DNA of 64,000 nt, from NCBI GenBank assembly GCA_002731275.1, contig PCBK01000106.1, forward strand, positions 37,333 to 101,332, in the 5' to 3' direction. This document shows, in pieces, positions 25,874 through 49,920 of the stretch (positions are counted from its first letter, which is position 1; each line of letters opens with the position of its first letter). The notes below the pieces were generated by a model. The model was not told where the DNA came from. It was given only the letters and a program-made list of their open reading frames with translations, and searched no databases. The position numbers were made by a program, and so were the translations under genes. This stretch comes from Deltaproteobacteria bacterium. GTDB lineage: Bacteria > Myxococcota_C > UBA6777.

Positions 25874-27415
25874 TCATAAAGTGGTGATAGACTTGTACTT
25901 TGTGGAGGAGAGCTTTTGGGATTGCAGAACAGCTTCAGTATCTTTGGGCCAAAACACACAAAACTCAGCGCCCTCGCCTTCTTGAGAGACAAGCTCGCAA
26001 CGCCCCCCAAATAACGATAACGTCTTCTTCACGATCGCCAATCCAACCCCACTTCCCTCACGCGAAACATCTAGCTTGCGAAAGATTCCAAACATCTGAT
26101 CCCGAAAAGACCTGGGAATCCCTGGCCCGTTATCCGCGATGCGAAACACGAGCTCTGTCTCAAGCTCACGCACCTCAATCGAGACACGACAAACATCTTT
26201 ATCGTTGTGTTTCAAGGTGTTATCGATCACACTTCGCAAGACGATTTCGAGGGGAACTTTGTGTGTCTGGAGACAGGGTACTTGTGCCTTGATCTCGACA
26301 ACGCTGTTGCTTGGGAAGGATAAGAAGTTGCAGATATCGTGCAGTAGATGAGGGACATCGACGCGTTCTACACTATACGAATGTCGACCAATCCGAGAAA
26401 ACAACAACAAATCGTCTAGCAGAACCCGCATCCTTATCACGCGCTTATGGAGCATTTCGAGATGTTCTTTCGACGCCTCAGGGAGCATGTGCAAGATATC
26501 TTCACACAACCAGTCTGAGAGTTGAAAAATCGCAGTCAACGGGCTTCTCAAATCATGGCTTGCGACGTAGACAAAATCATCAAGTTCTTTGTTCATCCTG
26601 TCGAGTTCCATGATATACTTCTCGACCTCGTGGGAGCTTTGCTTCGTTTCGGAGATATCTTCGATACTCACAGCTACAACTTTTGGGCCTTTCGTGAACG
26701 GGTTGTCCACCATCCCCCACGACATAAACCCCCAAAATTCCTCACCATCGGACCTGCGGCACAAAATCTCCGAGCTCGCCCGACGTCCACCGCTCAACGA
26801 GGCAAAAAAATCCGTGAACGACCCTCCCCAGAAGGTATCATCCTCAGCAAAAATCCGCCCCATGTGAATCCCTTGCGCTGGGTCGAGATCAAGTTCCATG
26901 TATTCGTTGAATTTTCGATTACAACCAAGCATCCAACCATCAAGCGAGAAAAAGGCCCCTCCAAACCCAACTTGATCGAACGCGACAGCGAGCAGTTCGG
27001 GCGAAAGATGCTTTAGAGAGCGCCCCCCTTCATCAGGCAAGTGAGCTAACGACTCCAAAACGAGTCCCACAAATCCCCGACCAAGCCCAAACACCCTGAA
27101 AGTATATCCCTTGTTAGAACGGGCAAAAGGAATCGGTCCTACCACGTGGGTCGTCGTTCCCGTCATTGCCACCTCGTTGATCGTTTGCAACACTGTGATC
27201 TCTCCACCAACAGGTTCTCTTTGACGAGAAGTTTCCTGTAAATGAGAGAAATCAACGAGATGTTCGAGTTCTTTATTTCCAAAGACAGGGACCGTATCCT
27301 CAAGCTTGGATGAAGTACACTCCCACACCATCGCAGCAGCACCAAACCCTTGGAAGAACTGGAACATCACATCATTAGACGCGTCGGAATCAGATTGCAT
27401 ACACCCAACTCGCAC
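25874..27415 (-). CDS. sensor histidine kinase (PAS-like N-terminal region, HisKA, HATPase_c)
   Basis: H-box ASHDLRSPLTAI, G1 DNGPGIP, G2 GSGVGLAIVKK. No obvious TM segments, so it is probably cytoplasmic. Start is uncertain (27415 or 27400). Confidence 0.85.
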   Translation of the reverse strand: MRVGCMQSDSDASNDVMFQFFQGFGAAAMVWECTSSKLEDTVPVFGNKELEHLVDFSHLQETSRQREPVGGEITVLQTINEVAMTGTTTHVVGPIPFARSNKGYTFRVFGLGRGFVGLVLESLAHLPDEGGRSLKHLSPELLAVAFDQVGFGGAFFSLDGWMLGCNRKFNEYMELDLDPAQGIHMGRIFAEDDTFWGGSFTDFFASLSGGRRASSEILCRRSDGEEFWGFMSWGMVDNPFTKGPKVVAVSIEDISETKQSSHEVEKYIMELDRMNKELDDFVYVASHDLRSPLTAIFQLSDWLCEDILHMLPEASKEHLEMLHKRVIRMRVLLDDLLLFSRIGRHSYSVERVDVPHLLHDICNFLSFPSNSVVEIKAQVPCLQTHKVPLEIVLRSVIDNTLKHNDKDVCRVSIEVRELETELVFRIADNGPGIPRSFRDQMFGIFRKLDVSREGSGVGLAIVKKTLSLFGGRCELVSQEGEGAEFCVFWPKDTEAVLQSQKLSSTKYKSITTL

Positions 27416-27603
27416 AAGACATTTTCTAAAAAATGCGTGAGAACTCTACGAGCCTCTCACCACAAAGTTCCGATGAAAGATAAAAGAAAGTTTCACATCT
27501 GGTATGATAAAAGAACTATAAAGCAAACACAAGCGAAGATCCACGAAACCTATCATGTGTGACACACTCCCTTACATAAAGCGCCGAAGAGTCCACGCCT
27601 CCA

Positions 27604-29013
27604 TCACCTAGAATGCAAATTGATAATTCGTTGGACACGTTGCAGGAAAGCACGTCCCTTCTCAGGGTCAACCATATGAACAAAGTTGGCGTACCCTTGG
27701 ATGGATGCGAACAGATCCCCACCATTTCCCCAAGTTTTTCCCTCAGGGCCGTCTTTCTCGATTTGGAATAGCGTCGCGCGAAAGCGGCGCAAAGTCTTGC
27801 GAGAGACGCTAAGCTTCTCGTTCACAACAATCCCAGTCACCTCACGACGTCGACCTCTCCTGTAGACAGCCGTTTTGTTCGGGTGGATCTTCAACCCTTC
27901 TTGGTGTAGCACAGATCGTAGCGACGCAAGAAGTTTCCCAACATCGACGTTATCGTTACCTGAGAAGGTCATATCATCGGCATAGCGAGAGTATGTAAAC
28001 TCGTGGACGCGAGCAAGCCCAGCGAGGCGCTTATCAAGTCGACGACAAAGGATATTCGTGAGAGTCGGACTGGTCGGCGCGCCTTGTGGAAGGGCTCTTG
28101 ACCCCTGCTGAACGAACCACAGCTCACCATCAAGCTCGATCTCCAAGATCTCAGGCTCCGTACAGAGCAACGTCATACAAGTCGAGACCGCCGGAGAATA
28201 CCCGAGCGCACGAAAACATCCCCAAACGCGAGGATAGTGGAATGTCGGGAAAAAATTCTCAATATCGATGTTGACAACGACATGAGCGCCAACATGCGCT
28301 TCTGCGTTGGTGACAATGGAGTGCTCCTTGCGAAAACCGTGTGCGCTTGGATGGATGGCGACTTGCTCAAGAACGTGCTCTAACAGCCAATGCTGCGCAG
28401 ATTTGAGGCGCTGCATGGGCGCAGAGATCAACCGTTTTCCGCCTGACTTTTTGGGCAGATAAAAACGTTGATAGTGGGACGTTTTGGACACCTTTCTTGA
28501 AAAGCAAAGAAAACGCAACGCGCCGATAGAGAGTCCCATCGCCAAAGCGAGATCTTCCGGCGTGTGGAAAATCGGTAGGTGATGAGCTGCAAGTCTCTCT
28601 TCATCGGAGACTTGCGAGGAGAGCGTCCCAGAGTGCCCCTCCCCCAAGTACAAGATCTCGTGCTGTTTGCGCTCTTTCCATGCCGCCGCGCGTTCCTCTC
28701 GCTCGCGGATTCGTCGCAATCGATTCTCTTTTTGCCGCTCTCGCGATTCGAGCATCCGTTTACGACGCGCAGCTTTGATTAACTTCTCCATGTCGTGAAG
28801 CTTTTCGAGTTCGCTTCGCAGCTTCCCGAGCTCACGCACAAGCTCCCCTTCCCGCTTGATGTCTTCTGCAGGGTCTTCGGGGATTTCGCCTTCTTTGGGC
28901 CAATAGCCGTAACGGACCATCTCTTCAAGGATGACCTCTTGCAGAGAGGACGCACGAACACGATCGTAGAGTTCTTGTCTCGTCGCGGGCTGTGTGTTGA
29001 TGATGTGACTCAT
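27604..29013 (-). CDS. retron-type reverse transcriptase with about 145-aa charged coiled-coil N-terminal extension
   Basis: RT motifs in order: YLPKKSGGKRLISAP, GFRKEHSIVTNAEAH (NAxxH), VNIDIENFFPT, LPQGAPTSPTLTN, YSRYADDMTFSG (YADD), HPNKT and EVTGIVVN (VTG). GGGAG SD lies 7 nt upstream of the ATG. The upstream gene's stop is 10 nt away. Confidence 0.9.
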   Translation of the reverse strand: MSHIINTQPATRQELYDRVRASSLQEVILEEMVRYGYWPKEGEIPEDPAEDIKREGELVRELGKLRSELEKLHDMEKLIKAARRKRMLESRERQKENRLRRIREREERAAAWKERKQHEILYLGEGHSGTLSSQVSDEERLAAHHLPIFHTPEDLALAMGLSIGALRFLCFSRKVSKTSHYQRFYLPKKSGGKRLISAPMQRLKSAQHWLLEHVLEQVAIHPSAHGFRKEHSIVTNAEAHVGAHVVVNIDIENFFPTFHYPRVWGCFRALGYSPAVSTCMTLLCTEPEILEIELDGELWFVQQGSRALPQGAPTSPTLTNILCRRLDKRLAGLARVHEFTYSRYADDMTFSGNDNVDVGKLLASLRSVLHQEGLKIHPNKTAVYRRGRRREVTGIVVNEKLSVSRKTLRRFRATLFQIEKDGPEGKTWGNGGDLFASIQGYANFVHMVDPEKGRAFLQRVQRIINLHSR

Positions 29014-29023
29014 GATAAACTCC

Positions 29024-30658
29024 CTACCCTTTCGCGTGGATCATGCGAATCGCGAGCATATGCTCACAAGGTCCCTTGAGCATTCGATTGTGCCGAAAGA
29101 ATCCACAAGTACACGTTGCATTAAACAGCCGATCATCCGCGTCGATAAACAACTCAATGTCATGGCGGTTGTCATTATGAGAAACTTTCCCTCGCACAAG
29201 TGTATGCTTCTCTGTCGTTTGCACATTCGTCACCTTCGCCGCCTTAGCGTCGACAAAGCGTGTGGCTTTCTCTTCACGCTCATTCGCAAAGCGCAGCTTC
29301 GACATGGGCAAAGGATCACGACTCAGCTCCCTCGCTCTATACACGTGTTTGTCGAGGTCATAGATCACTCTCCCCGCCTGTGTGTACGCCCCCAACGCCC
29401 CTAGCACAACATCCCTGTTCAGCCCCAACTTCCCAGCGAGCGCATCGGGAGTTGCCAACCATTCAGCTTTCAGCGCCTCGAACACTCGGACTTTTGTCTC
29501 ATCATCCACGTCCGCTCGCGGTGCCATTAAGTCGAAGTTCCCCGCAGTTGACCAATCATTGGAGGACCACCCAGAGAGACCCAATGTAAAGTTCATATCA
29601 CCGAGATCTGCGACGTAAAAAGAAGGCAACCCACGACCGAGCAGGTGGACGGTGAAGCGCTTTGCGATGGGAATCAGACGCTCAAGGATGTGAATCCGAC
29701 GACGTCCCCACACCCGAATCTCCTCCTCTTGGGGTCCGTGGTAGATCGAGCGTGAACAAACGATCTCCGTCCCCCAAGGATCAAAGACCACACGTACGGG
29801 TTCGCCTGGCGTCAGACGATACCGCATGGAGCGGGGCCCCTTCTTCTCCTTAAAGCGTCTCAATTGCATACAAAAGTTATAGATGTCCATTGGATGCAGA
29901 TCAAACGAGCGCGCAGGCAACGTCATCGCTGAGCTGACCTGCAAAAAACCTCGCACCCACGTATCGGGCAGGTCGATCTTGACTTCTCTGTAATCATCCT
30001 CCCCTTGCGTCTTTACATCAAACCCCGAAGGATCGACTGTCAGCGAAGTGGTCTTGTACGTTCTGATCTTTTGGAACTCATTGTACAGCGCTTGTGAGTA
30101 ATCGATGTTGGTCGTCCCACATGAAAACTCATCGATACGCCCAAAGACCTCGTAATTGCAACCAAGCTTCCCATAGCTCGACTCATCTTGACTAAAACAT
30201 TCGAAGAAGATTTCATCCGGATGGACTGTGATGACAGGGTCCAACACCCACCAGGCATCGAGATTGACCTTGTAGAGGTAGTTGAAATACTTTTGCTTGG
30301 CCTTCTCGAAGGCAGCGCGACGTTGTCGTGACCGGCGTCTCAACTCACCAAGCTCTTCGGAGAGCGCATCGATTTGGTCTTTGACACCTTTCCGATCGAG
30401 AGCAATCCCTTCCCAATCGAGAAACTCTTGCTGTGCAGCCCACTCTTTGTATTCAGAGCGGTCTTTTGGCTGATAACGCATATCCGAAATCACGACATCA
30501 TGCAGCGCACTGATCGCCTCTCGAAAGGCGATCTTTTTGTGCAGCTCACCGATAAAATAAGTCGGAGGACGGCTCGCATCAGGCACGAATGACATCGCAG
30601 TCTCATTCGCCCCCCCCTGTACAGAAGAGTTGCCTAGATAACGGTAATCAAACTGCAT
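29024..30658 (-). CDS. SWIM zinc-finger protein (about 544 aa)
   Basis: C-terminal CxCx(n)CxH signature: C-T-C-GFFRHNRMLKGP-C-E-H. The ATG at 30658 has a GGAGG 8 nt upstream and overlaps the upstream gene end by 11 nt. The tracked GTG at 30676 is the alternative start. Confidence 0.8.
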   Translation of the reverse strand: MQFDYRYLGNSSVQGGANETAMSFVPDASRPPTYFIGELHKKIAFREAISALHDVVISDMRYQPKDRSEYKEWAAQQEFLDWEGIALDRKGVKDQIDALSEELGELRRRSRQRRAAFEKAKQKYFNYLYKVNLDAWWVLDPVITVHPDEIFFECFSQDESSYGKLGCNYEVFGRIDEFSCGTTNIDYSQALYNEFQKIRTYKTTSLTVDPSGFDVKTQGEDDYREVKIDLPDTWVRGFLQVSSAMTLPARSFDLHPMDIYNFCMQLRRFKEKKGPRSMRYRLTPGEPVRVVFDPWGTEIVCSRSIYHGPQEEEIRVWGRRRIHILERLIPIAKRFTVHLLGRGLPSFYVADLGDMNFTLGLSGWSSNDWSTAGNFDLMAPRADVDDETKVRVFEALKAEWLATPDALAGKLGLNRDVVLGALGAYTQAGRVIYDLDKHVYRARELSRDPLPMSKLRFANEREEKATRFVDAKAAKVTNVQTTEKHTLVRGKVSHNDNRHDIELFIDADDRLFNATCTCGFFRHNRMLKGPCEHMLAIRMIHAKG

Positions 30659-33600
30659 GCTTTTGCCCTCCACCACGGACCTCTATCGGTCGGGTTCGAA
30701 TGGAAACATCGAGGTCTGGATACGAACGCTGAATGTCCACCAACGCTGCGATGTAGGTCGCCTTGTCACCGACAGATTGTGTCATGGACAGCCAGCCAAA
30801 GAGGTCCGCGACAAAGCTCGCGACTTGTTCGCTCTGGGCCGCTTCTCTTTGTAGGAACGCGAGCACGCGCTCCTTTGCGTCACGTCCTTGTTTGACGCGA
30901 CAGAGTACCCGCTTAAAGTAAGGTTCGAGCATCTTAATGGTTCCAGGTTGACCAGATGCAAAGCGTTCGAGATAGTTTGTCACAAAAAACTCCACATTGG
31001 GAGCGGGGTGTTGAGACAATTTTTCGAGATATTCAGGTCCATCCTCTGGACCAAAGAAGCGCGTGATCAACTCCCGACCAAAGCGCTGCACATCATCACG
31101 GACGCTGTCACAGATACCAACAAGAATGGACGCTGTAAGACTGGTTTCGTCGAATTGTTCGCGGTAAAAGTCAAACGCAAAGGAGCGAGAGTCTTCCCAA
31201 TCGACATCCAAGATCCGCAAACCTGAGAGCATATCCATCTTCAAGTCATCGAGACGCTCACGGTACATCCGCCAGCTCACCTCCCTCACAGCACGCAGCT
31301 CATGCCCCGCGAATGTCGCGAGCTGCTTGAGCGAGTAAGTATCGGCAGCAAGAGGTTGCAGCAAAGCCGCGCCAAGATCCTTCGCGTCGTCAGTGAAGGC
31401 AAACAACAATCGCCATATCATCTGCTTGTCGACGTGGGCCTCGGGCGCTTCATACTCATCCCAAAACATCTGACACAGACGCGCATGTTCTCCCTCGAAC
31501 AACTCCCGTCGCAATAACTCACCAATGTGACCATAAACGATGCTTGGCAACGCGTCGGGGCGGGAGAGGATCAACGCCCGAAACAGTTCAAGACCACAAT
31601 CTGCGATGCTTACACGATGATGTGCGCAGCTCCTCAACAAAAAGGACGGACTGTCGAGATGGCTCTCTCTTGGGATACGTTCGAGTAACACGTCGACAAA
31701 GACGGACTCGCCTGGATCGTGGACGCTCTCCTCCTCCAAGGAGACTTTGCGAATCAACCGGGCTCCTAGCAAAACAGCCTGTGCAGGTTGTTCAACACAC
31801 AGCTGTTCGAGCGCAGGCTTGATCACAGCCCGCACATTTTCCTGCACATGTGTCAGCGCTTTTTCAAAGATGTCGAGTTGCTGAAACAGCAATGTACTTG
31901 GTGTTTGCGAAAGTAACGGAGTGAGCAGTGATGAGAAATCCCCATCCTCATTCAAGAGACGTAAACAAAGCGCAACACCCATGTCAGGCTCTTTCGCGAG
32001 TAACCTCTCTGTGATGGGATGCAGAGCATCTTGTACTTCCCGATTGGGATCGACATACAACGAAAAGAGCAAATCTTTTCGTGCAAGCAGCGCGTCATGA
32101 GACAGACCAGACAACATCTCGATCCCAATACGACGGACGCTTGCGTATGGTGATCGAAACAAACCTTCGAACACATCTTCAGGCAAAGAAGAAGGCGCCA
32201 CCTCCTGCAACAAGAGCAGCTCTGCAGCGGCAATCTGAACGGGCTCCAAAGAGTGTGTCAACAGCGTCACGATAGAGCTAAAGGGGAGTCGCTTACATTG
32301 CTCCTCAAAGACCCACAGTAACGTCTGGACGATATCAATTTGGCGCTCGTTCTCTGCAGCGGAATGCTCCCCTTCTCTGATCCCCACGTTGTCACCACCA
32401 GGGAAATGAGCCGCATCTCCAATCGTCACAAGATCAGTACGAAATGGACCCGCTGAACCAGCCGGGTAGCCATGATGTCCAAAGAAATCGCGGACGCGCC
32501 CTTCTACACCTGTAGAGGTATCCAGCGCTGCTCCACAGGCCATCAAACGACTGCAATACGGAACACTCTCCGAGGTCTCGACTGCTCCGTACCGAAATTC
32601 GATATGATGATCACTCTCAAACAAGCAAACCTGGAAGGTGACGATGATATAACTCGATTCATTCGCATAACCAGAGGTCGTACAACGCCATTCGACGACA
32701 CGCACGCGCTCGTCGTTGTGTTTGATCAACTGCGTTCGAACATAACCGTCATGGGCCGTATGGAGATCTGCCCACCAAGGAAACAACCCGACAGCGTTGT
32801 TTTGGCTATACGCATGATAGTTTGAGTAAGTGCTCCCCCAATGTCCAGCAAATGACAACCAACCATTCGAATCTGCGGAAAACTTAGAGTATGATTTGCC
32901 ACCAAAGCGAAAAGAGAACCCGATATTCCACTTGGAGCTGGTCCGATCATCGACATTTGGACCGATCAAACGCTCGGGTTTGTCGAGTGGCAATAAACCA
33001 CCGTCGTTATCAGGCAGACCTTGTCTTCGTCTCTCCAGCTTGTAGCTGTCCAGACTGTGCTTGTCGCCTTCTGCTGTCGGATGAAAGTGGATATTGTATG
33101 CCCCGCCACCAAACGCAGGATCAGTGAGAGAGTTGATGATCAACTGTGAAAACTGCTTTGCAAATCCCTGATACCCCTCCGCGAGACGCTTGAGCAAGTG
33201 ACGTGATGAGAGACGAACCTCTCGGTCCTGATGTGAACACAACAGGTACAACAGGTCTTGCTCTTTGATCAGCAGCGACTCATCGACCTGCTCCAGGACT
33301 TTGAGACCGAGCAAACGCAACGCCCGTTGATTTCTGCTGAGCAAGGCCCTCGCATCTTTAGCGTCTGCGTGTTCAACAGCCAATCGGAGTGCATTCTCCA
33401 AGACACTCTGAATTTCACCCGGTAGCCTCGAATCTTCTGAGAGCTCTTTGCCCAACAACCCCAGCAAAGACGCAAACAAAGCTTTTTGCTCATCGACCTC
33501 AAAGGACGCCGAGTTGAGAAACCCTACGACAAACTGTCGTACATCCTGAAAGTCCGACAGAAGCAAGCCAATGACAAACTCTTTCTTTTTGAGATAGCCT

Positions 33601-35291
33601 TCTCGATGAAGCTCAAGCCAACGCAAACCAAGCTGCCGGTCCGATGGAACAGGACTCGCGAGCAAAGACGGCACCTGCTTGGAGATGGCCTCTTTGTCAT
33701 CCTCAGGGAGCCCTGAAACATCGGACTGTAAGAGTTTCTCAAGCGCAAACGACCGCGTTTGTGTGTAGGGAGCTTTGAAGAGAATGGAGAGCGCATCGGA
33801 TGGAATCTCGTCGCAAAACAATGGATTCTCTTGAAGAACCCGCAAGGCAAAGGCGTGGACCTGCTCGGAGGCACTTTTTTGTAAAAGCCGAAGCGCATAC
33901 TCAGGATGGGAAACCCACAAATCAGGAAACGCCTCTTTCGTCTCAACATCGTCGAGTGCACGAGCCGCACGAACAGCCTCTTGCCAACGATATGAGCCGG
34001 GCCTCGCCGCCTTCAACGCTCTGTCATAGAGAATATGGTTAAACACAACCGCGTCATCGGCGATCGTGTACGCTCGCTCACCACCCTCGACTGAAAATGC
34101 ACGAGGAAACATCCCGCCTTTCAAAGACATATTCAGCTTGATCGTGTATTTCGCATCTCCCCAATAGGACTCATTCTTGACGGCGATACTGTACTGAATG
34201 TCTTTGTACATCATCACTTCCAGACGACGACTTCGATACCCCGACCGACAAGAACCAACAGACTCACCGCTGTGATCCTCGACAGTGAGCGAGGGACAAT
34301 GACCATAGCTGCTGTTTTCAGCCGTCAGGATGTATTTCGCGGTCTGGAAAGGTGTGAATGTGTAGTACTTGGTTTTGCTACTGGCGACAGTCAGCTCATG
34401 ACGCTTGCCAACATCCAAGGGATACGGGGAGCCTTTCTTGCCGTTGGCGGGCCTATTTTGTAGCAAAACCCCACCACTTGAGACCTGCACAGCGCCCTCT
34501 TTGTTGATCGAGACCTTCCGACCATCGAGAACATAGTGAGGCGCACTCGCGAGCAGCTCATCGTCATAGGCAAGCAGCGTGTGTGTCGCCATCTCAAGAT
34601 AGGCATGAGGGTCCGTCGCTGCGAGGCGCCTCAAACTGTGCCAAAGATGACGACGAAGGTGTGTCCGTGTACCAATCGAATAAGCTCTCTCATCGAGATC
34701 AGAGGATTGTGGATCACCCACTGCGAAGGTCTCGTCAAGGCGACGAGAGAGTAAACCAAATACCTCCGCATCGGCCCGATAGATAGAAGCCTTCAGGATC
34801 GAACGAATGGATTGAAAATTCGCCCCCTCCAAAGGAATCGAATCCAACACACGACACAGACCTTTGCGCATATAGGGCGCATCGATCACGTAACAAGTAT
34901 ACAAGTCCAGGTGAGGGTCATTGTTGTTCGACAGTCGACGGATAGCTTTATCAAACTCACTGATCTTCTGAGCGGACTTAAGGGCAGCAGGGAGTCTATC
35001 TCGAAACCCTTGTAGAAAAGTCTCATGGGCTTTTTGATCAGGCTTTGTCAGCGCTCGCAGCGCTTCAGTGACCATATTGGACAAGGCCGCTGGTAACCTG
35101 ACACGTTGTTGTACTTTCTCCAGCGCAGGGATCGCGCTTCCATCTCCGCATCGACCAAGAGCCCAGCAAAGCGCATACGTTTGTGCCTCGGACTCAGCGT
35201 GTTCGAGCAGGGAAAGAAGTCGCCCCACAGCTTTCTTTTGCCGGCGTTTTCCAGCGTTCCAGATCCATGTTGCGTGAGAAAAAGAACTCAT
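30648..35291 (-). CDS. 1547-aa HEAT/ARM-like helical repeat protein with two beta-rich inserts
   Basis: PBS-lyase/HEAT-like signature ALGRCGDGSAIPALEKV near the N-terminus. There are many D/E-x-VR helical repeats. Beta-rich segments lie at about aa 255-390 and aa 725-965. No TM segment or signal peptide. Confidence 0.75.
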   Translation of the reverse strand: MSSFSHATWIWNAGKRRQKKAVGRLLSLLEHAESEAQTYALCWALGRCGDGSAIPALEKVQQRVRLPAALSNMVTEALRALTKPDQKAHETFLQGFRDRLPAALKSAQKISEFDKAIRRLSNNNDPHLDLYTCYVIDAPYMRKGLCRVLDSIPLEGANFQSIRSILKASIYRADAEVFGLLSRRLDETFAVGDPQSSDLDERAYSIGTRTHLRRHLWHSLRRLAATDPHAYLEMATHTLLAYDDELLASAPHYVLDGRKVSINKEGAVQVSSGGVLLQNRPANGKKGSPYPLDVGKRHELTVASSKTKYYTFTPFQTAKYILTAENSSYGHCPSLTVEDHSGESVGSCRSGYRSRRLEVMMYKDIQYSIAVKNESYWGDAKYTIKLNMSLKGGMFPRAFSVEGGERAYTIADDAVVFNHILYDRALKAARPGSYRWQEAVRAARALDDVETKEAFPDLWVSHPEYALRLLQKSASEQVHAFALRVLQENPLFCDEIPSDALSILFKAPYTQTRSFALEKLLQSDVSGLPEDDKEAISKQVPSLLASPVPSDRQLGLRWLELHREGYLKKKEFVIGLLLSDFQDVRQFVVGFLNSASFEVDEQKALFASLLGLLGKELSEDSRLPGEIQSVLENALRLAVEHADAKDARALLSRNQRALRLLGLKVLEQVDESLLIKEQDLLYLLCSHQDREVRLSSRHLLKRLAEGYQGFAKQFSQLIINSLTDPAFGGGAYNIHFHPTAEGDKHSLDSYKLERRRQGLPDNDGGLLPLDKPERLIGPNVDDRTSSKWNIGFSFRFGGKSYSKFSADSNGWLSFAGHWGSTYSNYHAYSQNNAVGLFPWWADLHTAHDGYVRTQLIKHNDERVRVVEWRCTTSGYANESSYIIVTFQVCLFESDHHIEFRYGAVETSESVPYCSRLMACGAALDTSTGVEGRVRDFFGHHGYPAGSAGPFRTDLVTIGDAAHFPGGDNVGIREGEHSAAENERQIDIVQTLLWVFEEQCKRLPFSSIVTLLTHSLEPVQIAAAELLLLQEVAPSSLPEDVFEGLFRSPYASVRRIGIEMLSGLSHDALLARKDLLFSLYVDPNREVQDALHPITERLLAKEPDMGVALCLRLLNEDGDFSSLLTPLLSQTPSTLLFQQLDIFEKALTHVQENVRAVIKPALEQLCVEQPAQAVLLGARLIRKVSLEEESVHDPGESVFVDVLLERIPRESHLDSPSFLLRSCAHHRVSIADCGLELFRALILSRPDALPSIVYGHIGELLRRELFEGEHARLCQMFWDEYEAPEAHVDKQMIWRLLFAFTDDAKDLGAALLQPLAADTYSLKQLATFAGHELRAVREVSWRMYRERLDDLKMDMLSGLRILDVDWEDSRSFAFDFYREQFDETSLTASILVGICDSVRDDVQRFGRELITRFFGPEDGPEYLEKLSQHPAPNVEFFVTNYLERFASGQPGTIKMLEPYFKRVLCRVKQGRDAKERVLAFLQREAAQSEQVASFVADLFGWLSMTQSVGDKATYIAALVDIQRSYPDLDVSIRTRPIEVRGGGQKHAV

Positions 35292-35303
35292 GTGTCAAAG
35301 CCT

Positions 35304-37469
35304 CTAGGAAGTAATGTGCATGATCAAATTGGCAGCAAAATGAGCATGTTGATGGGGAGAAGAGAGGGCTCGTTGGAGGAGCTTGCGGACCTCAAGCTTG
35401 ATCGCTGTATGTGTCGACGTATGTGCGATCTTCACGAGCAACTCTTGTCTCTCAGCGATCGAACTGTCGGACCACTGACGTAGAAGGCGCAAAAACACTT
35501 CTAACGCCTCCTCTTCTTGCAAACCTGCAGCATGTATCCACACTTCATCGGTGATTGAGGAGGGCACACGTCCTTCGAGCATCTTCATGCCAAGTATCTG
35601 TTTGTGTAGATGTTTGTGTTGCAACAAAGCCAACACCAGCTCCAAAGAGAGCACGCGCAATGTACGAGAGAAATGCTTCACCATCATCTCAATGCAAGCG
35701 ATCTCTGCCCCTTTCTTGCCACTGCTGCGTGCAAGCAACGCACCGATCAACATGCGACACAAGGACCGCTCCTTTGTCGGCCCCAACACCGCGACACCAA
35801 AGAAGACATCACCCAAAGCCCGAACTTTCGCGCTCTTGTGAAGCATGAACGCGCCGAGTAAGGCTTGGGAACGAACGAATTTCATGATCTGACGATCGGG
35901 AAGCTCCTTGAGCGACTTCACATTCTCAAGGAGCCAATCGGAGACAAACTCTTGAGCATTCTCGTCCGGTGAAGTCGCGATGATCCCCATAATGGATGCA
36001 TCCCCTGCGCGTTCTTTTGCCATCGAAAAGCCAAGCTCTCGAGGCGCGTCGTAGATGGAGGAGAGCATACACTGCAAATGTTGGTAAGAATAAGCATCAG
36101 GAGACTGCTTCAAAAATCCAACGGCTTCGAGACGTTCATAAGCCATCTTACGGACCAGCTCACTTTGCGCGTCTGTCCAAAGCATCAACACATCTTCTTG
36201 AGAACACGCTTGCCATAGTGATGACATCGACGTCTCTGTCACCAAACGGGACAAACTCCCACCTGCTGCGTCCTGGAAAGCTTCATCAGTCGCCATCGAC
36301 AACATCGACAACACAACACGTTCCCCATCGTGCTCTTCTCTTTCTCGTGCCAATTGCTTCCACAAGTGCTTGCGAAACGTTTTCACGCCCCTTGTGCTAT
36401 ATGGAATATCATCTTTGGTATCGAATAGGCCGAACAAGCAAGCGATACTATCAACATCTCCAAGCAACCACGCCGCGTCGTAGATCTCGCGGAGACACTG
36501 CATCGAGTGTCCCTGGAGCTTGTACTGCTTCATACTCCGACAGAGTGCCCCTCTCAACTCTTTTCCTGCGGTCAAAAACAAAACAAACACAGAGGGTGTC
36601 GTCTCCTCCTCCTCAAGGAGCTGATGAGCGCACTGAACACCCCCCTCAAGATCTCCATTGTTCACGAGCTCTCGCAATGTGGAAGGGAGCTGTTGATTGC
36701 GCTGTACGGTCCACTCATCGAACGCTACAGGTTGGGCTTGCAAGAGGTGAGAGAGTCCGGCATACGCGACACGTGCAAGAGACGTTTTGAGAGGCATCGA
36801 GGCCAAACGTCGAAGTGCTTCAATGGCCTGTTCACCACCACAACGGGACAACGCCCACGCGACATCGTATTGTACGCGGAATCGACTCTGTAGAAGCCGA
36901 CACAGCTTGGGCGTCGCGTCGGCGATGCGCAGTTGTCCAGCACGTCTGATCACACTTGAAAGAGACCACTTTCCGCGCTCTCCAGGCTGGGCTGTCAGAT
37001 AAAAGTCCAACCACTGCAACACAGCCTCCTCGCGACTTGAAGCGCCACGACCTGGGTGCACAACGCGCTCAGAAACGTCCGCATTCTCTTCGCTTGGGGG
37101 AGTCTGTAGCGAAGGAGGTACGACTTCATCGACAGAGACAACTTCATCAGCGACGGGCTCCTCTGAGACGACCTCTTCAGGGGTCGCTTCGCGCCCTAAG
37201 AGGGTGGCATAATCTGTTTCGAGATATTCGGTTGTCTCGACGTACCCTTTGCGAATCTTTTCCTGCACGAGTTTGTCAAATGCTGCCTGTCCCTTGTCAA
37301 GCTCGACAGGTGCTTTGGTTCTTGTCCCATCACGGAGACGATGACCACGTCGTCCATATCGAAAGTTGACAACATATTGTTGCGTGTTCACTTCGCAAAG
37401 TTCGATCTCGTAGACTTTATCGGACTTTCCTTGTTGAAAAGACAAACATTTTTGATGGAGGAGTCTCAT
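35304..37469 (-). CDS. WGR-domain protein with HEAT-like repeat body (721 aa)
   Basis: N-terminal WGR pattern: GKSDKVYEIELCE...YVVNFRYGRRGHRLRDGTRTK...AAFDKLVQEKIRKGY. An acidic linker follows, then the HEAT-like WALSRCGGEQAIEALRRL. First gene of the operon. Confidence 0.8.
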   Translation of the reverse strand: MRLLHQKCLSFQQGKSDKVYEIELCEVNTQQYVVNFRYGRRGHRLRDGTRTKAPVELDKGQAAFDKLVQEKIRKGYVETTEYLETDYATLLGREATPEEVVSEEPVADEVVSVDEVVPPSLQTPPSEENADVSERVVHPGRGASSREEAVLQWLDFYLTAQPGERGKWSLSSVIRRAGQLRIADATPKLCRLLQSRFRVQYDVAWALSRCGGEQAIEALRRLASMPLKTSLARVAYAGLSHLLQAQPVAFDEWTVQRNQQLPSTLRELVNNGDLEGGVQCAHQLLEEEETTPSVFVLFLTAGKELRGALCRSMKQYKLQGHSMQCLREIYDAAWLLGDVDSIACLFGLFDTKDDIPYSTRGVKTFRKHLWKQLAREREEHDGERVVLSMLSMATDEAFQDAAGGSLSRLVTETSMSSLWQACSQEDVLMLWTDAQSELVRKMAYERLEAVGFLKQSPDAYSYQHLQCMLSSIYDAPRELGFSMAKERAGDASIMGIIATSPDENAQEFVSDWLLENVKSLKELPDRQIMKFVRSQALLGAFMLHKSAKVRALGDVFFGVAVLGPTKERSLCRMLIGALLARSSGKKGAEIACIEMMVKHFSRTLRVLSLELVLALLQHKHLHKQILGMKMLEGRVPSSITDEVWIHAAGLQEEEALEVFLRLLRQWSDSSIAERQELLVKIAHTSTHTAIKLEVRKLLQRALSSPHQHAHFAANLIMHITS

Positions 37470-37598
37470 AAAACGACCTATGTGACAAAGATATCAACCA
37501 AACGACAAACACTTAGCTGCTTGTGGTTTTTGTGGAGTTGACAATGGTGTGCAAGCTCACGACCTGGCGCATCGAGAAGGCACGTTCAATCTAGGGCA

Positions 37599-37685
37599 GT
37601 GAGAAGACTTACTCTACTGGAGTCCCAGTCGCAGAGTCAAGTCTTTCACCGCTCTTTTCACTCCGAGACGAAGGAGTATAGAGCG
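37599..37685 (-). ncRNA. candidate structured RNA: two adjacent hairpins in the leader of the WGR-to-RT operon
   Basis: Hairpin 1 (37599-37649) has 21 Watson-Crick pairs in four segments (4+7+5+5) with a 4-nt loop (agtc). Hairpin 2 (37650-37685) has 6+5 bp and an 8-nt loop. No U-tract follows on the minus strand. Strand and function are not established. Confidence 0.3.
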
Positions 37686-37775
37686 AGTCAGTCTGACGAC
37701 GAACTGGTAAAGGTGCAGGAAGATGCAGAAAGGAAGGAAGAGAACGAAGGGTCGGACGATTAAACAGGGAGCGTC

Positions 37776-38864
37776 TTAGGAGAAGATGTCGACGTTTTTG
37801 AGATCTTCACAGGCTTTGGTGAGGCGAGCGACAAAAGCGTCTTCACCGAAACGCAACCATTTGCGTGGATCGTAGTATTTTTTATTGGGTTTGTCGTCAC
37901 CTTCAGGGTTTCCGAGCTGGGCCTGGAGGTAATCTTTGTTGTCTTTGTAGTACCCGTGCACACCATCCCAAAATGCCCACTGCAAGTCCGTGTCGATGTT
38001 CATTTTGATGACACCGTAGTTGATGGCTTCGCGGATCTCTTCGAGGGTCGAACCAGAACCACCGTGGAACACGAAGTGGATGGGCTTCTCACCTGTCTTG
38101 AAGGTCTCTTGGATGTGTTTTTGTGTGTTGTCGAGGATAATGGGTCTGAGTTCGACGTTTCCGGGCTTATACACACCGTGAACGTTCCCAAAAGCCGCAG
38201 CGACAGTGAACTTGTCGCTGACCTTCATCAACTCTTCATAGGCATAAGCGACTTCTTGGGGTTGTGTGTAAAGGCGGGCGCTGTCGACGTCAGTGTTATC
38301 GACACCATCTTCTTCCCCACCGGTCACACCCAGCTCGATCTCAAGTGTCATGCCCATCTTGGACATTCTTTCGAGATAGCGCTTGCTGATCTCGATGTTT
38401 TCTTCGAGTGTTTCTTCGGACAGGTCGAGCATGTGTGAACTGTAAAGAGGCTTACCGTGCACTTTGTAAAACTCTTCGCCAGCGTCGAGGAGACCGTCAA
38501 TCCAGGGCAACAACTTCTTGGCAGCGTGGTCGGTGTGCAAGACAACACGTGCGCCATACAATTCAGCCATTTGGTGGACGTGATGCGCGCCAGAGACTGC
38601 ACCTGCAATGGCGGAACGGTGATCTGTATTTTTCAACCCTTTTCCGGCGAAAAATTGTGCACCACCATTTGAAAACTGGATAATGATAGGCGAATTGACA
38701 GCTACGGCTGTTTCGAGGACGCTGTTGACAGAGCTTGTGTTTACGACATTGGCTGCTGGCATAGCGAATTGTTTGGTCTTTGCGTAGTTGAGAAGCTCGG
38801 TGAGGTCGTCACCCACGATCACACCAGCTGGAAAACGTTCCTTCAGTGAAGTCTGTTCGGACAT
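37776..38864 (-). CDS. fbaA: class II fructose-bisphosphate aldolase
   Basis: Motifs IIQFSNGGA, HTDHAAK, LEIELGVTGGEEDG and FVFHGGSGS. The ATG at 38864 follows an AGAGGAAAG SD. The 33 upstream codons of the tracked ORF are unlikely to be translated. Confidence 0.9.
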   Translation of the reverse strand: MSEQTSLKERFPAGVIVGDDLTELLNYAKTKQFAMPAANVVNTSSVNSVLETAVAVNSPIIIQFSNGGAQFFAGKGLKNTDHRSAIAGAVSGAHHVHQMAELYGARVVLHTDHAAKKLLPWIDGLLDAGEEFYKVHGKPLYSSHMLDLSEETLEENIEISKRYLERMSKMGMTLEIELGVTGGEEDGVDNTDVDSARLYTQPQEVAYAYEELMKVSDKFTVAAAFGNVHGVYKPGNVELRPIILDNTQKHIQETFKTGEKPIHFVFHGGSGSTLEEIREAINYGVIKMNIDTDLQWAFWDGVHGYYKDNKDYLQAQLGNPEGDDKPNKKYYDPRKWLRFGEDAFVARLTKACEDLKNVDIFS

Positions 38865-39121
38865 CTTCTTTCCTCTGTCGATTGAATGGTTAAAAAAGTA
38901 CCCAACTTCTTGAGAAAGATGGGTAGGATCAATTCGAAACAGAGCGTAACCAAAAAGCCTCAAAGGTCAAGTGAAAACAAAAACAATTGTAAGAAAACAG
39001 CAACATCACTTGCGTTCGTGATGAGATGCGATACCCTATCCTCACATACCACCATCACAAAGCCCTGACGCTCACCTCGCGTTTTGATGAGACAGGTCTT
39101 TGCACACAATAGGAATCTGGA

Positions 39122-40567
39122 ATGTGGAAGTTGTTAGCAGAATCAAGCTTATGGATAGCCGCCATCGTCGGCTTTATCATATCAATAGGCTCCGCCATCC
39201 ACGTCATTTTGTACAAACGAGACGTGCGCGCAGCGTTCGGCTGGGCTGGTTTTTGTATGGCTGTCCCGTATGTCGGTCCATTTTTGTACCTTTGCTTTGG
39301 GATCAACAGGGTCCAACGCAAAGCGATCAAGCTGCGTCGCTCAAGAGTCCGACTACAAGCCCCCCTTGAGATCTCCAATGCGACAGAAGACTTGCCGAGC
39401 TTTTCGGACATCTCCACCACCCTCGACTCACTCTCCTTGCTCGTCGATGGACTCGTTGAACGCCCCCTCCTGTCAGGAAACAAATTTACATTGCTGACAA
39501 ACGGCGACGAAGCGTACCCGGAGATCTGCAAAGCCATTCGCGAAGCCAAACACAGTGTCACCCTCCTGACGTACATCTTCGACAACGATCAGGCAGGAAA
39601 AATGTTTGTCGACGCCCTCAAAGAGGCGCACGACAGAGGAGTACAGGTCCGCGTTTTAATCGATGATATGGGACGTCGCTACTCTTGGGTTCCCATCGAT
39701 CGAGTCTTACGTGAGGCTGGTATCCCAACGGATCTGTTTATGAAAACAGAGATTCCTTGGAGCATGCAGTTCGTCAACTTGAGAAACCACAGAAAGATCA
39801 TCGTCATCGATGGAAAGGTCGGCTACACAGGTGGGCTCAACATCAGAGATGGACACATGCACTCCCTCAACCCCAAGCACAAAATCCAGGACATTCATTT
39901 TCGCGTAGAGGGCCCGGTCGTGACGCACTTACAAGAAGCCTTCGCGGAAGATTGGGTCTACACAACAGGAGAGCTACTCGAAGGTGAACCCTGGTTTGTC
40001 CCACTACAACACGAAGGAAAGACGCTCGCACGGGGTATTCCTGATGGGCCTGATGGTGACTTTGAATCCATCCGATGGACGATCCTCGGTGCGCTGTCAT
40101 GTGCGCGCTCATCGATCAGGATCATCACCCCCTATTTTCTCCCAGATCAGACCTTGATCACATCGCTCAATCTCGCGGCGATGAGAGGCGTAGATGTCGA
40201 AATTCTACTACCAGAGAGAGGTAACCTCCCGACAGTACAGTGGGCATCGACCGCGACCCTTCATCAAGTGATGGAGCGGGGATGTAAGGTCTACTACACG
40301 CCCCCACCTTTTGATCACAGCAAGCTGATGGTTGTAGATAAAACGTGGGTGTTGCTCGGCTCTGCCAACTGGGACCCTCGAAGTTTACGCTTGAATTTCG
40401 AGTTTAACGTGGAGTGTTACGATGCTGAGCTTGGGAAAGATGTGCACGAGCGACTCGGCGCGATCAAGCAGCAGTCCAAACTCGTCACGCCAGACCACTT
40501 GAGCAATCGCTCCTTCCCTGCCAAAGTACGCGATGGATTCGCCCGCCTCTTCTCCCCGTACATGTAG
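39122..40567 (+). CDS. cls: cardiolipin synthase (phospholipase D superfamily)
   Basis: Two N-terminal TM helices. Two HKD motifs: NHRKIIVIDGKVGYTGGLN and DHSKLMVVDKTWVLLGSAN. Confidence 0.85.
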   Translation: MWKLLAESSLWIAAIVGFIISIGSAIHVILYKRDVRAAFGWAGFCMAVPYVGPFLYLCFGINRVQRKAIKLRRSRVRLQAPLEISNATEDLPSFSDISTTLDSLSLLVDGLVERPLLSGNKFTLLTNGDEAYPEICKAIREAKHSVTLLTYIFDNDQAGKMFVDALKEAHDRGVQVRVLIDDMGRRYSWVPIDRVLREAGIPTDLFMKTEIPWSMQFVNLRNHRKIIVIDGKVGYTGGLNIRDGHMHSLNPKHKIQDIHFRVEGPVVTHLQEAFAEDWVYTTGELLEGEPWFVPLQHEGKTLARGIPDGPDGDFESIRWTILGALSCARSSIRIITPYFLPDQTLITSLNLAAMRGVDVEILLPERGNLPTVQWASTATLHQVMERGCKVYYTPPPFDHSKLMVVDKTWVLLGSANWDPRSLRLNFEFNVECYDAELGKDVHERLGAIKQQSKLVTPDHLSNRSFPAKVRDGFARLFSPYM

Positions 40568-49865: not shown

Positions 49866-49920
49866 AAGAGCATGCTGTGTACCTCTTCTCTCGTGTAGAA
49901 GAGGTACACAGCATGTTCTC
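49866..49920 (-). terminator. strong hairpin (19 perfect bp plus a 4-bp extension, 7-nt loop) between the MFS gene end and the ABC operon start
   Basis: catgctgtgtacctcttct (49871-49889) pairs perfectly with agaagaggtacacagcatg (49897-49915). It lies 88 nt downstream of the MFS stop and 75 nt upstream of the binding-protein start. No clear U-tract. Confidence 0.45.

What the first reader, a model, noticed from the sequence alone, without database searches (positions are those of the whole stretch)
27604..37469. Four-gene operon WGR/HEAT, giant HEAT protein, SWIM zinc finger, retron-type reverse transcriptase: candidate undescribed RT-based system
**Seen in sequence.** Four minus-strand genes are packed with a 12-nt gap, an 11-nt overlap and a 10-nt gap. 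That spacing implies co-transcription and translational coupling.

- The last gene is an RT with intact catalytic residues (NIDIENFF, YADD) and the retron-associated NAxxH and VTG motifs.
- The first gene opens with a clear WGR domain.
- The third gene ends in a canonical SWIM CxCx(n)CxH finger.
- The second gene is a 1547-aa helical-repeat protein.

**Established knowledge.** WGR (as in PARP) and SWIM are nucleic-acid-associated modules. Retron, DRT and Abi RTs act in anti-phage defence together with accessory effector genes. From memory, WGR/DUF4132 and SWIM genes co-occur with MoxR ATPase and VWA genes in a poorly characterised cluster around E. coli molR/yehI/yehLMPQ.

**Inference.**

- The MoxR/VWA pair is absent here and an RT is present instead.
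- I do not recognise this combination among the published retron types or DRT classes.
- I could see no nuclease, TIR, protease, ATPase or membrane effector, so the output mechanism is unknown.
- No integrase or transposase flanks the locus (fbaA on one side, a two-component pair on the other). It may therefore be a lineage-resident system rather than a mobile island.
Basis: partly seen in the sequence, partly recalled or inferred. Interest (0 to 1): 0.9.

Follow-up and report, generated by a model that had tools for sequence, protein, structure and literature searches.

The report
Retron type XIII operon, unusual variant
The four genes are real and co-packed, but they are a retron type XIII system, a kind already classified in 2020, here in a rare form with an enlarged scaffold protein and no retron RNA gene nearby.

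Summary
Four minus-strand genes (WGR/HEAT 721 aa, HEAT 1547 aa, SWIM 544 aa, retron RT 469 aa) are separated by a 12-nt gap, an 11-nt overlap and a 10-nt gap, and every quoted motif is present.

The claim that the system is undescribed does not hold. All four proteins match the PADLOC-DB models for retron type XIII: RT_XIII 3e-182, SWIM_XIII 3e-238, WGR_XIII 5e-124 and 2e-230. Mestre et al. 2020 define type XIII as a clade-10 RT (the Mx162/Mx65 family) with a SWIM CxCx12CxH protein and WGR-HEAT/ARM proteins.

Three things are unusual here:
- The usual single WGR-HEAT gene of about 1,060 aa is replaced by two genes totalling 2,268 aa. Only about 5 of at least 447 protein clusters share this giant form.
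- SWIM and RT abut. In 59 related loci they are 246-8,038 nt apart, a space that usually holds the msr-msd RNA gene.
- No type XIII msr-msd RNA was detected in the 64-kb window or in about 10 kb beyond each end. The same model finds it in 67 of 80 related loci.

The RNA is most likely encoded elsewhere in the genome. A predicted model of the SWIM protein core resembles PCNA-type sliding clamps. The function of type XIII remains untested.

The parts
35304..37469 (-). Gene 1: WGR domain plus HEAT/ARM repeats, 721 aa. It corresponds to the N-terminal third of the usual fused type XIII WGR-HEAT protein, plus an extra C-terminal region.
   Evidence: Pfam WGR at residues 12-80 and HEAT_2. PADLOC WGR_XIII 5e-124, covering profile positions 1-348 of 973. 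Among the homologues found, only P0122 (712 aa) shares this length and full coverage; the rest are about 1000-1100 aa.
30648..35291 (-). Gene 2: giant HEAT/ARM scaffold, 1547 aa, with two inserts that do not read like helical repeats (about residues 245-445 and 725-985).
   Evidence: PADLOC WGR_XIII 2e-230 (best stretch on profile positions 637-972) and HEAT-ARM_XIII models. tblastn shows the canonical proteins align only to residues about 10-245, 415-725 and 1270-1541. RemA 8gl6_D matches residues 778-903. Only about 5 clusters at 50% identity share the giant form.
29024..30658 (-). Gene 3: type XIII SWIM protein, 544 aa. Predicted layout: a long helix, a PCNA-like double domain carrying the invariant acidic D140/D148/E153/D186/E225 motif, a helical domain that Mestre et al. 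called a winged helix, and the C-terminal SWIM finger CxCx12CxH.
   Evidence: PADLOC SWIM_XIII 3e-238 and Pfam SWIM. Homologues from other phyla are 64-71% identical, and the acidic residues are invariant. AF2 models and Foldseek return only PCNA chains as top matches.
27604..29013 (-). Gene 4: retron RT of the type XIII clade, 469 aa, with the clade's conserved N-terminal extension of about 170 aa.
   Evidence: PADLOC RT_XIII 3e-182 (605 bits; the next model scores 301 bits). Pfam RVT_1. The closest solved structure is the Ec86 RT, 6e-45. The RT keeps all columns that are invariant among 34 clade members.
37470..37775 (-). 306-nt leader upstream of gene 1. It contains a promoter-like site (TTGACT-18-TAGAGT, 37640-37611) and stable hairpins. 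It is probably the promoter and 5' UTR, not a recognisable msr-msd.
   Evidence: Fold z-score -2.8. Promoter-like site. No match to the type XIII RNA model. No similarity to the equivalent regions of L087 and L088.
27428..27460 (-). Tentative intrinsic terminator after the RT gene: an 11-bp stem (GTGAGAGGCTC / GAGTTCTCAC), a 3-nt loop, then GCATTTTTT.
   Evidence: Read by eye. The scan did not list it, because the T-run starts 3 nt after the stem. The next gene, a histidine kinase, starts about 27400.

Best explanation
The locus is the protein module of a retron type XIII system. This is the clade-10 RT family that includes the classic Mx162, Mx65, Sa163 and Ne144 retrons. It sits in the chromosome of an uncultured marine bacterium and is transcribed as one operon: WGR-HEAT, giant HEAT, SWIM, RT.

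It belongs to a rare 'giant-HEAT' sub-lineage. There the usual fused WGR-HEAT protein of about 1,060 aa is replaced by a much larger HEAT protein. In the window and in L087 a separate WGR-HEAT gene precedes it. The msr-msd RNA gene, normally between SWIM and RT, sits in different places in this sub-lineage.

Proposed working, all of it inferred:
1. The RT copies a type XIII msr-msd RNA encoded elsewhere in the genome into msDNA, primed from the 2'-OH of a branching G.
2. The SWIM protein and the WGR/HEAT scaffolds assemble on the RT-msDNA particle. WGR domains sense DNA ends and nicks in PARPs; HEAT repeats act as a protein-binding platform.
3. As in characterised retrons, tampering with the msDNA or the complex during phage infection releases an effector activity. 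The only candidate is the invariant acidic motif of the SWIM protein acting on DNA.

Shown here: gene content, family assignment, tight operon packing, and absence of the RNA gene in cis. How likely each part is: type XIII identity about 0.95, RNA supplied in trans about 0.55, a defence role about 0.5.
For: - All four proteins hit the PADLOC type XIII models, and the partner list matches Table 1 and the text of Mestre et al. 2020.
- RT relatives at 50-62% identity are linked to SWIM and WGR-HEAT genes in most of 80 loci from Myxococcota, Cyanobacteria, Acidobacteriota, Planctomycetota and Bacteroidota.
- The canonical RNA is strongly conserved: 52 predicted pairs, 37 of them with compensatory changes. 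It is found in 67 of 80 loci.
- Sub-lineage relatives show the RNA gene moves. In L083 it lies between SWIM and RT. In L081 there are two copies downstream of an RT that overlaps SWIM by 4 nt. In L088 none is found in 21.7 kb.
- In several cyanobacterial loci the RNA stays next to SWIM while the RT is 2-8 kb away. Some RTs have neither the RNA nor a SWIM gene within 10 kb. Supply in trans is therefore plausible.
- The RT and SWIM proteins of the window and of L088 keep every column that is invariant in the clade, so there is no sign of decay.
Against: - No type XIII RNA was detected in 64 kb, with nhmmer --max, with the covariance model at default filters, or with filters off across the locus. 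None was detected in about 10 kb beyond each end either. msDNA production therefore rests on an unseen gene.
- I found no paper in the held library that tests a type XIII accessory gene or shows phage defence by this type.
- Very high cross-phylum conservation (SWIM 64-71%), the 16S-correlated inheritance reported by Mestre et al., and housekeeping neighbours are all atypical of fast-evolving defence islands.
- The predicted clamp-like fold fits poorly with a nuclease or transposase effector.
Confidence: 0.7

Rival explanations
1. RNA-less derivative. This sub-lineage has lost its msr-msd, and the RT-SWIM-HEAT-WGR complex works without msDNA. It might copy other templates, or the RT might serve only as a structural or sensing subunit.
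For: No RNA gene in about 84 kb here, nor in 21.7 kb around the independent relative L088. In both loci SWIM and RT abut or overlap, leaving no space for it.
Against: The RT keeps YADD, NAxxH, VTG and all clade-invariant residues, including the N-terminal extension. Two other members of the same sub-lineage (L083, L081) do have canonical RNAs. RNA and RT are unlinked in other lineages. Only a small fraction of the genome could be searched.
Confidence: 0.2
2. A strongly diverged msr-msd lies hidden in the 306-nt leader upstream of the WGR gene (37470-37775, minus strand).
For: The region is unusually structured (MFE -87.8 kcal/mol, z -2.8). It is the only long non-coding stretch in the operon.
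Against: No match to the RNA model or HMM even with filters off. No flanking a1/a2 inverted repeat. Its longest hairpin is about 45 nt, against msd stems of 100 nt or more in relatives. It contains a promoter-like site. It shares nothing with the equivalent regions of L087 or L088.
Confidence: 0.07
3. Domesticated housekeeping role. Type XIII, including this locus, is a vertically inherited nucleic-acid-handling machine, for example in DNA repair or a stress or developmental response, rather than an anti-phage system.
For: Mestre et al. report a moderate correlation with 16S (0.78) and suggest domestication. SWIM is 64-71% and RT 50-62% identical across phyla. Neighbours are fbaA, cardiolipin synthase and two-component genes, with no mobile-element genes or tRNA. 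The SWIM core is predicted to be PCNA-like and the WGR domain is a DNA-break sensor in PARPs, which resembles a repair toolkit.
Against: Every retron type tested so far acts in phage defence (papers listed). Type XIII is curated in PADLOC-DB as a defence-system candidate. Tandem RNA copies with diversified msd in relatives look like diversifying selection.
Confidence: 0.3
4. One reading: a previously undescribed RT-based system, distinct from all retron and DRT classes.
For: The exact gene architecture (split WGR, giant HEAT, SWIM abutting RT, no RNA in cis) is rare.
Against: All four proteins are unambiguous members of the type XIII families, and the combination is described in PMC7736814.
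Confidence: 0.03

Closest known systems
Retron type XIII (Mestre et al. 2020; RT clade 10; Retron-Mxa1/Mx162, Mxa2/Mx65, Sau1/Sa163, Nex2/Ne144)
   Same: The RT clade; the SWIM protein with CxCx12CxH and the invariant acidic D-D-E-D-E motif; the WGR-like plus HEAT/ARM accessory proteins; the gene order accessory genes, SWIM, RT; the chromosomal, apparently vertically inherited context.
   Different: WGR-HEAT is split and expanded (721 + 1547 aa against about 1,060 aa), with two extra inserts that do not read like helical repeats. SWIM and RT are 10 nt apart instead of at least 246 nt. No msr-msd RNA was found in cis.
Giant-HEAT relatives found here: L087+L083, L081/L082 and L088/L089 (marine and other metagenome contigs)
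   Same: HEAT proteins of 1,356 aa or more that share the insert region; SWIM 66-71% and RT 58-61% identical; in L081 and L088 the SWIM and RT genes overlap by 4 nt.
   Different: L083 keeps the RNA between SWIM and RT. L081 has two RNA copies downstream of the RT. L088 has no WGR gene next to the HEAT gene. Only L087 shares the separate WGR protein of about 715 aa.
Retron Ec86/Eco1 (type II-A), the closest RT with a solved structure
   Same: Retron RT core (E 6e-45 over residues 140-419) with the NAxxH and VTG motifs. The likely logic is the same: RT plus msDNA holds an effector in check.
   Different: The effector is an N-glycosidase forming filaments with RT-msDNA. It has no WGR, HEAT or SWIM partners and no N-terminal RT extension of about 170 aa.
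PCNA / sliding-clamp fold
   Same: Residues about 135-365 of the SWIM protein are predicted as two clamp-type domains. Foldseek returns only PCNA chains among the 50 matches listed in each of two searches (E about 5e-7, probability 1.0, about 250 aligned columns).
   Different: Sequence identity is 7-16% and TM only 0.36-0.53, with large rmsd. The first domain is modelled at low confidence. Ring formation and DNA encirclement were not tested. The protein also carries extra helical, winged-helix and SWIM modules.
   Same: Co-occurrence of a WGR protein with a helical C-terminal region and a SWIM protein. This is a recollection only and was not tested against those proteins.
   Different: No DUF4132 (PF13569) signal in the full-length proteins or the fragments scanned. 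No MoxR or VWA family among the neighbouring proteins I scanned. An RT is present.

Membership tests
Retron type XIII | RT belongs to retron RT clade 10 (the type XIII RT family) | tested here: met
   PADLOC RT_XIII 3.2e-182, 604.7 bits, against 301.5 bits for the next model. Relatives include Myxococcaceae, Archangium and Hyalangium loci with an msr-msd RNA between SWIM and RT. No formal tree was built.
Retron type XIII | [quoted passage not shown] | tested here: met
   PADLOC SWIM_XIII 3.4e-238 and Pfam SWIM. The sequence shows C-T-C-x12-C-E-H, and D140-x7-D148-x4-E153-x32-D186-x38-E225. All five acidic residues are invariant in 46 homologues. The last spacer is one residue longer than published.
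Retron type XIII | Accessory WGR-like plus HEAT/ARM protein(s) upstream of the SWIM gene (clusters 216, 259, 1688, 3262) | tested here: met
   PADLOC WGR_XIII 5e-124 and 2e-230, plus HEAT-ARM_XIII models. Here the protein is split into two genes and enlarged, whereas 40 of 44 related loci have one ORF, 39 of them 1013-1125 aa and one 1362 aa.
Retron type XIII | Type XIII msr-msd ncRNA gene contiguous with the RT | tested here: not met
   A covariance model and an HMM were built from 26 related loci. They detect the RNA in 67 of 80 loci and in sub-lineage relatives at 63-115 bits. They find nothing in the window or in about 10 kb beyond each end.
Retron (general) | RT with the retron-specific NAxxH and VTG motifs and an intact YxDD catalytic site | tested here: met
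   NAEAH at 236-240, YADD at 344-347, VTG at 392-394. The best solved homologues are all retron RTs.
Retron (general) | Produces msDNA (branched RNA-DNA) from its ncRNA | not testable with these tools
   This needs small-DNA extraction or sequencing from the organism or from a heterologous host.
DRT / UG / Abi reverse transcriptases | RT is best matched by DRT, UG or Abi RT families rather than by retron RTs | tested here: not met
   All 25 top PADLOC families are retron RT models.
YehI/MolR-type WGR-DUF4132 proteins | DUF4132 (PF13569) domain | tested here: not met
   No PF13569 hit for the full-length proteins at E <= 0.01, nor at E <= 10 for three sub-fragments: HEAT residues about 998-1547 and WGR residues about 401-721.
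Sliding clamps (PCNA / beta-clamp) | Two clamp domains per subunit that assemble into a closed ring around DNA | tested here: inconclusive
   Fold resemblance only: Foldseek E 4e-7 to 5e-7, TM 0.36-0.53 (normalised by target) among the 50 matches listed in each search, model pLDDT 65-68, with the first domain at low confidence. Oligomeric state was not modelled.

The most novel reading that the evidence does not exclude
The giant-HEAT sub-lineage could be a distinct sub-type of type XIII. In this reading the RT-SWIM pair is translationally coupled and the msr-msd template is uncoupled from the operon, either supplied in trans or lost. The scaffold has gained two inserts of unknown role, possibly sensing or binding. 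The 'SWIM effector' is then a PCNA-like DNA clamp rather than a transposase-derived nuclease, which would imply an output mechanism unlike that of any characterised retron.
Probability: 0.25. Interest if true: 0.6.

Novelty: new variant of a known kind. Interest (0 to 1): 0.35.

Why it matters
Type XIII is the family of the first retrons ever found (Mx162, Mx65) and one of the most widespread types: 11% of candidates in a 2026 metagenome survey, with the broadest phylum range. Even so, I found no experimental work on its WGR/HEAT and SWIM partners.

This locus adds no new system. It does show that the type's parts can be rearranged. The RNA gene can be detached from the RT, and the scaffold can double in size.

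The clamp-like prediction for the SWIM protein gives a concrete hypothesis to test about how the most conserved partner binds DNA. The tandem, msd-diversified RNA copies seen in relatives suggest that one RT may serve several msDNAs.

Tried and rejected
- Rfam found nothing, at gathering thresholds over the whole window or at E <= 5 over the locus.
- Searches for the type XIII RNA found nothing: nhmmer --max, the covariance model with default filters and with filters off, a motif search and an inverted-repeat scan. The best 'hits' were noise: 2.4 bits at 12976-12996 inside a coding region, and 9.6 bits or less with most of the model deleted.
- The leader at 37470-37775 and the RT-downstream spacer share nothing with the equivalent regions of L087, L088 or L081.
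- DUF4132 was not detected in the sequences scanned.
- Pfam gave nothing for the two HEAT inserts or for the first 486 residues of the SWIM ORF as read from the upstream GTG.
- A PDB sequence search found no solved homologue of the SWIM or WGR proteins.
- Naming the organism from 90%-identity clusters failed because names are masked. Only the source is known: Tara and other marine metagenomes, and MAG GCA_002720785.1. A Planctomycetota origin is a guess, from the PF07638-type ECF sigma factor and the many Ser/Thr kinases.
- P0372 (2366 aa) was tested as a possible fusion of genes 1 and 2. It shares only the HEAT insert and C-terminus, not the WGR protein.
- One edge look-up failed because I first chose a shadow ORF.
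Full report
**Observation.** The region holds four minus-strand ORFs: 35304-37469 (721 aa), 30648-35291 (1547 aa), 29024-30676 and 27604-29013 (469 aa). For the third gene, gene callers on identical contigs and all homologues start at the ATG at 30658, giving 544 aa.

Pfam confirms WGR (residues 12-80) and HEAT in protein 1, HEAT in protein 2, SWIM (512-542) in protein 3 and RVT_1 in protein 4. The translation shows NAEAH, NIDIENFF, YADD and VTG in the RT, and CxC-x12-CxH in the SWIM protein. GC content of the locus (0.51-0.54) is close to that of its surroundings. The window has no tRNA.

The neighbours are housekeeping genes: class II fructose-bisphosphate aldolase, cardiolipin synthase, a histidine kinase and a response regulator with GGDEF/EAL, and an RpoD-like sigma factor. 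No integrase or transposase is present.

**Identity.** Against PADLOC-DB the four proteins hit the models named for retron type XIII:

| Protein | Model | E-value | Note |
|---|---|---|---|
| RT | RT_XIII | 3e-182 | 605 bits; next model 301 bits |
| SWIM | SWIM_XIII | 3e-238 | |
| WGR protein (gene 1) | WGR_XIII | 5e-124 | profile positions 1-348 of 973 |
| Giant HEAT (gene 2) | WGR_XIII | 2e-230 | best stretch 637-972; also hits HEAT-ARM_XIII models |

Mestre et al. 2020 define type XIII as follows (PMC7736814). The RT is in clade 10. The ncRNA structure is distinct (forms named Firmicutes, Mx162, Mx65, Ne144). A linked cluster 114_1 protein carries a DEDE motif, a winged helix and a C-terminal SWIM CxCx12CxH. 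It is usually preceded by a WGR-like plus HEAT/ARM protein (cluster 216) or by other HEAT/ARM proteins.

The validated members are Mx162, Mx65, Sa163 and Ne144. The acidic motif is present and invariant here: D140, D148, E153, D186 and E225 in 544-aa numbering.

A 2026 survey found type XIII to be the third most abundant retron group (143 candidates, 11.1%) with the broadest phylum range.

**Comparative context.** RT relatives at 50-62% identity are abundant: 4,303 proteins at E <= 1e-20 among those scored. At least 584 stretches in one-genome-per-species contigs encode a relative.

In 80 fetched loci the usual layout is one WGR-HEAT gene, then SWIM, then a spacer, then RT. WGR and the HEAT C-terminus lie in a single ORF in 40 of 44 loci; 39 of these ORFs are 1013-1125 aa and one is 1362 aa. 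In all 59 loci with SWIM upstream of RT, the SWIM-RT spacer is 246-8,038 nt.

In most of these loci the spacer holds a strikingly conserved RNA. An alignment of 26 spacers gives flanking a1/a2 repeats, a conserved msr hairpin and a long msd stem. There are 52 predicted pairs, 37 of them with compensatory changes. An HMM of this RNA finds it in 67 of 80 loci.

**What is unusual in the window.**
- *No room for the RNA, and none found.* SWIM and RT are 10 nt apart. The HMM with all filters off finds nothing in the 64 kb: its best match is 2.4 bits at 12976-12996, inside a coding region. The covariance model finds nothing with default filters. With filters off across 26500-39500 it returns only noise of 9.6 bits or less, with most of the model deleted. 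Contigs of the same organism extend the negative result by about 10 kb on each side.
- *A split and enlarged scaffold.* It is 721 + 1547 aa. Canonical proteins align only to HEAT residues about 10-245, 415-725 and 1270-1541. Segments about 245-445 and 725-985 are therefore insertions. The second resembles the N-terminal region of RemA.
- *Rarity.* Among homologues of gene 1, only P0122 (712 aa) has the same architecture. In a scan of 1.84 billion cluster representatives, 447 proteins match the C-terminal half of the giant HEAT at E <= 1e-30. Only about five (1547-2366 aa) also share the insert; the other matches listed align only to the C-terminal block and are mostly about 1000-1100 aa.

**The sub-lineage.** Four lineages share the giant HEAT.

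| Lineage | Genes | RNA gene |
|---|---|---|
| Window | WGR721, HEAT1547, SWIM544, RT (10-nt gap) | none in about 84 kb |
| L087 + L083 (same sample, equal coverage, so probably one locus) | WGR712, giant HEAT, SWIM546, RT | canonical, long msd, between SWIM and RT (115 bits) |
| L081/L082 | HEAT of at least 1356 aa, SWIM549, RT overlapping SWIM by 4 nt | two canonical copies downstream of the RT (77 and 63 bits) |
| L088/L089 | unrelated 152-aa gene, HEAT1652, SWIM556, RT overlapping SWIM by 4 nt | none in 21.7 kb |

So the position of the RNA gene is fluid in this branch. Elsewhere the RNA can sit next to SWIM while the RT is 2-8 kb away (L002, L009, L035, L058, L077). Some RTs have neither the RNA nor a SWIM gene within 10 kb. 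That makes supply in trans plausible.

The RT and SWIM proteins of the window and of L088 retain every clade-invariant residue, which argues against decay.

The 306-nt leader (37470-37775) is structured (z -2.8). However, it contains a promoter-like site, lacks a1/a2 repeats, and shares nothing with the leaders of L087 or L088. I read it as promoter plus 5' UTR.

**Mechanistic clues.** No solved structure of a type XIII partner exists by sequence search. The nearest solved RT is Ec86.

An AlphaFold2 model of the SWIM protein, built with 46 sequences, has pLDDT 68 and pTM 0.67. It is confident for residues about 240-544 and weak for 1-240. Foldseek against the PDB gives 350 matches at E <= 0.001. 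All 50 matches listed are PCNA sliding clamps aligned over their whole length (E 4e-7, probability 1.0, TM 0.40-0.53 per target).

A second model, of residues 130-380 alone, again returns only PCNA among the 50 matches listed. The resemblance is at fold level. The first domain, which carries the acidic motif, is modelled at low confidence. I therefore treat it as a lead.

It suggests the most conserved partner (64-71% identical across phyla) is a clamp-like DNA-binding module, with winged-helix and SWIM add-ons, rather than the transposase-derived nuclease suggested in 2020. I found no paper linking retrons to clamp-like folds.

**Most likely working.** One transcript from about 37600 to a hairpin at about 27430 yields the four proteins. 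The RT makes msDNA from a type XIII msr-msd RNA encoded elsewhere. The SWIM protein and the WGR/HEAT scaffolds assemble on the RT-msDNA particle. Disturbance of that particle, by analogy with characterised retrons, switches on an activity of the SWIM protein on DNA.

Only gene content, family assignment and packing are shown; the rest is inferred. My estimates are: type XIII identity 0.95, RNA in trans 0.55, RNA lost 0.2, diverged RNA in the leader 0.07. A defence role (0.5) competes with a domesticated housekeeping role (0.3). The latter fits the vertical inheritance, extreme conservation and housekeeping neighbourhood.

**Novelty and score.** The system is not new. It would be labelled retron type XIII by existing tools. 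The specific architecture is a rare variant: split and enlarged scaffold, abutting SWIM and RT genes, and no RNA in cis. Because the contiguous msr-msd was tested and not found, I file it as a variant of the type rather than a plain member. Interest is moderate to low (0.35). It comes from the missing RNA, the clamp-like prediction, and the lack of any experimental work on this widespread type that I could find in the held library.

Noticed in passing
L016:8933-9905; L006:9067-9804; L078:7369-8045; L081:7117-8104; 12 further loci: In 15 of 67 related type XIII loci the msr-msd RNA gene occurs as 2-4 tandem copies. L081, outside that set, also has two. Within a locus the msr and stem-base parts are mostly about 80-100% identical, but the variable msd stem is mostly only about 45-65% identical. 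One RT may therefore make several different msDNAs.
   Followed up: partly
L002, L009, L035, L058, L074, L077 (RNA next to SWIM, RT 1-8 kb away); L003, L025, L033, L040, L059, L062, L079 (RT alone): In cyanobacterial and some other genomes the type XIII parts are dispersed. The RNA stays just after the SWIM stop codon while the RT lies kilobases downstream. Some RTs have neither SWIM nor the RNA within the 6-10 kb available upstream.
   Followed up: partly
window 32325-33110 (-), residues about 725-985 of the 1547-aa protein: An inserted domain inside the HEAT scaffold, beta-rich by my reading of the sequence, with sequence similarity to the N-terminal region of the gliding adhesin RemA (8gl6_D residues 50-171, E 3e-10). 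It has no Pfam family. It is shared with the other giant-HEAT proteins, including a 2366-aa one.
   Followed up: partly
window 12182-15115 (-): A 977-aa ORF with no Pfam or NCBIfam match at the thresholds used, next to an RpoD-like sigma factor gene.
   Followed up: no
window 49867-49919: A near-perfect 23-bp inverted repeat with a 7-nt loop, in the intergenic space between two minus-strand genes. It is probably a terminator or an operator.
   Followed up: no
L088:13078-13140: Four tandem copies of a unit of about 15 nt (GTCTCTGCAGCTGAT-like), directly downstream of the RT stop codon in the RNA-less relative.
   Followed up: no
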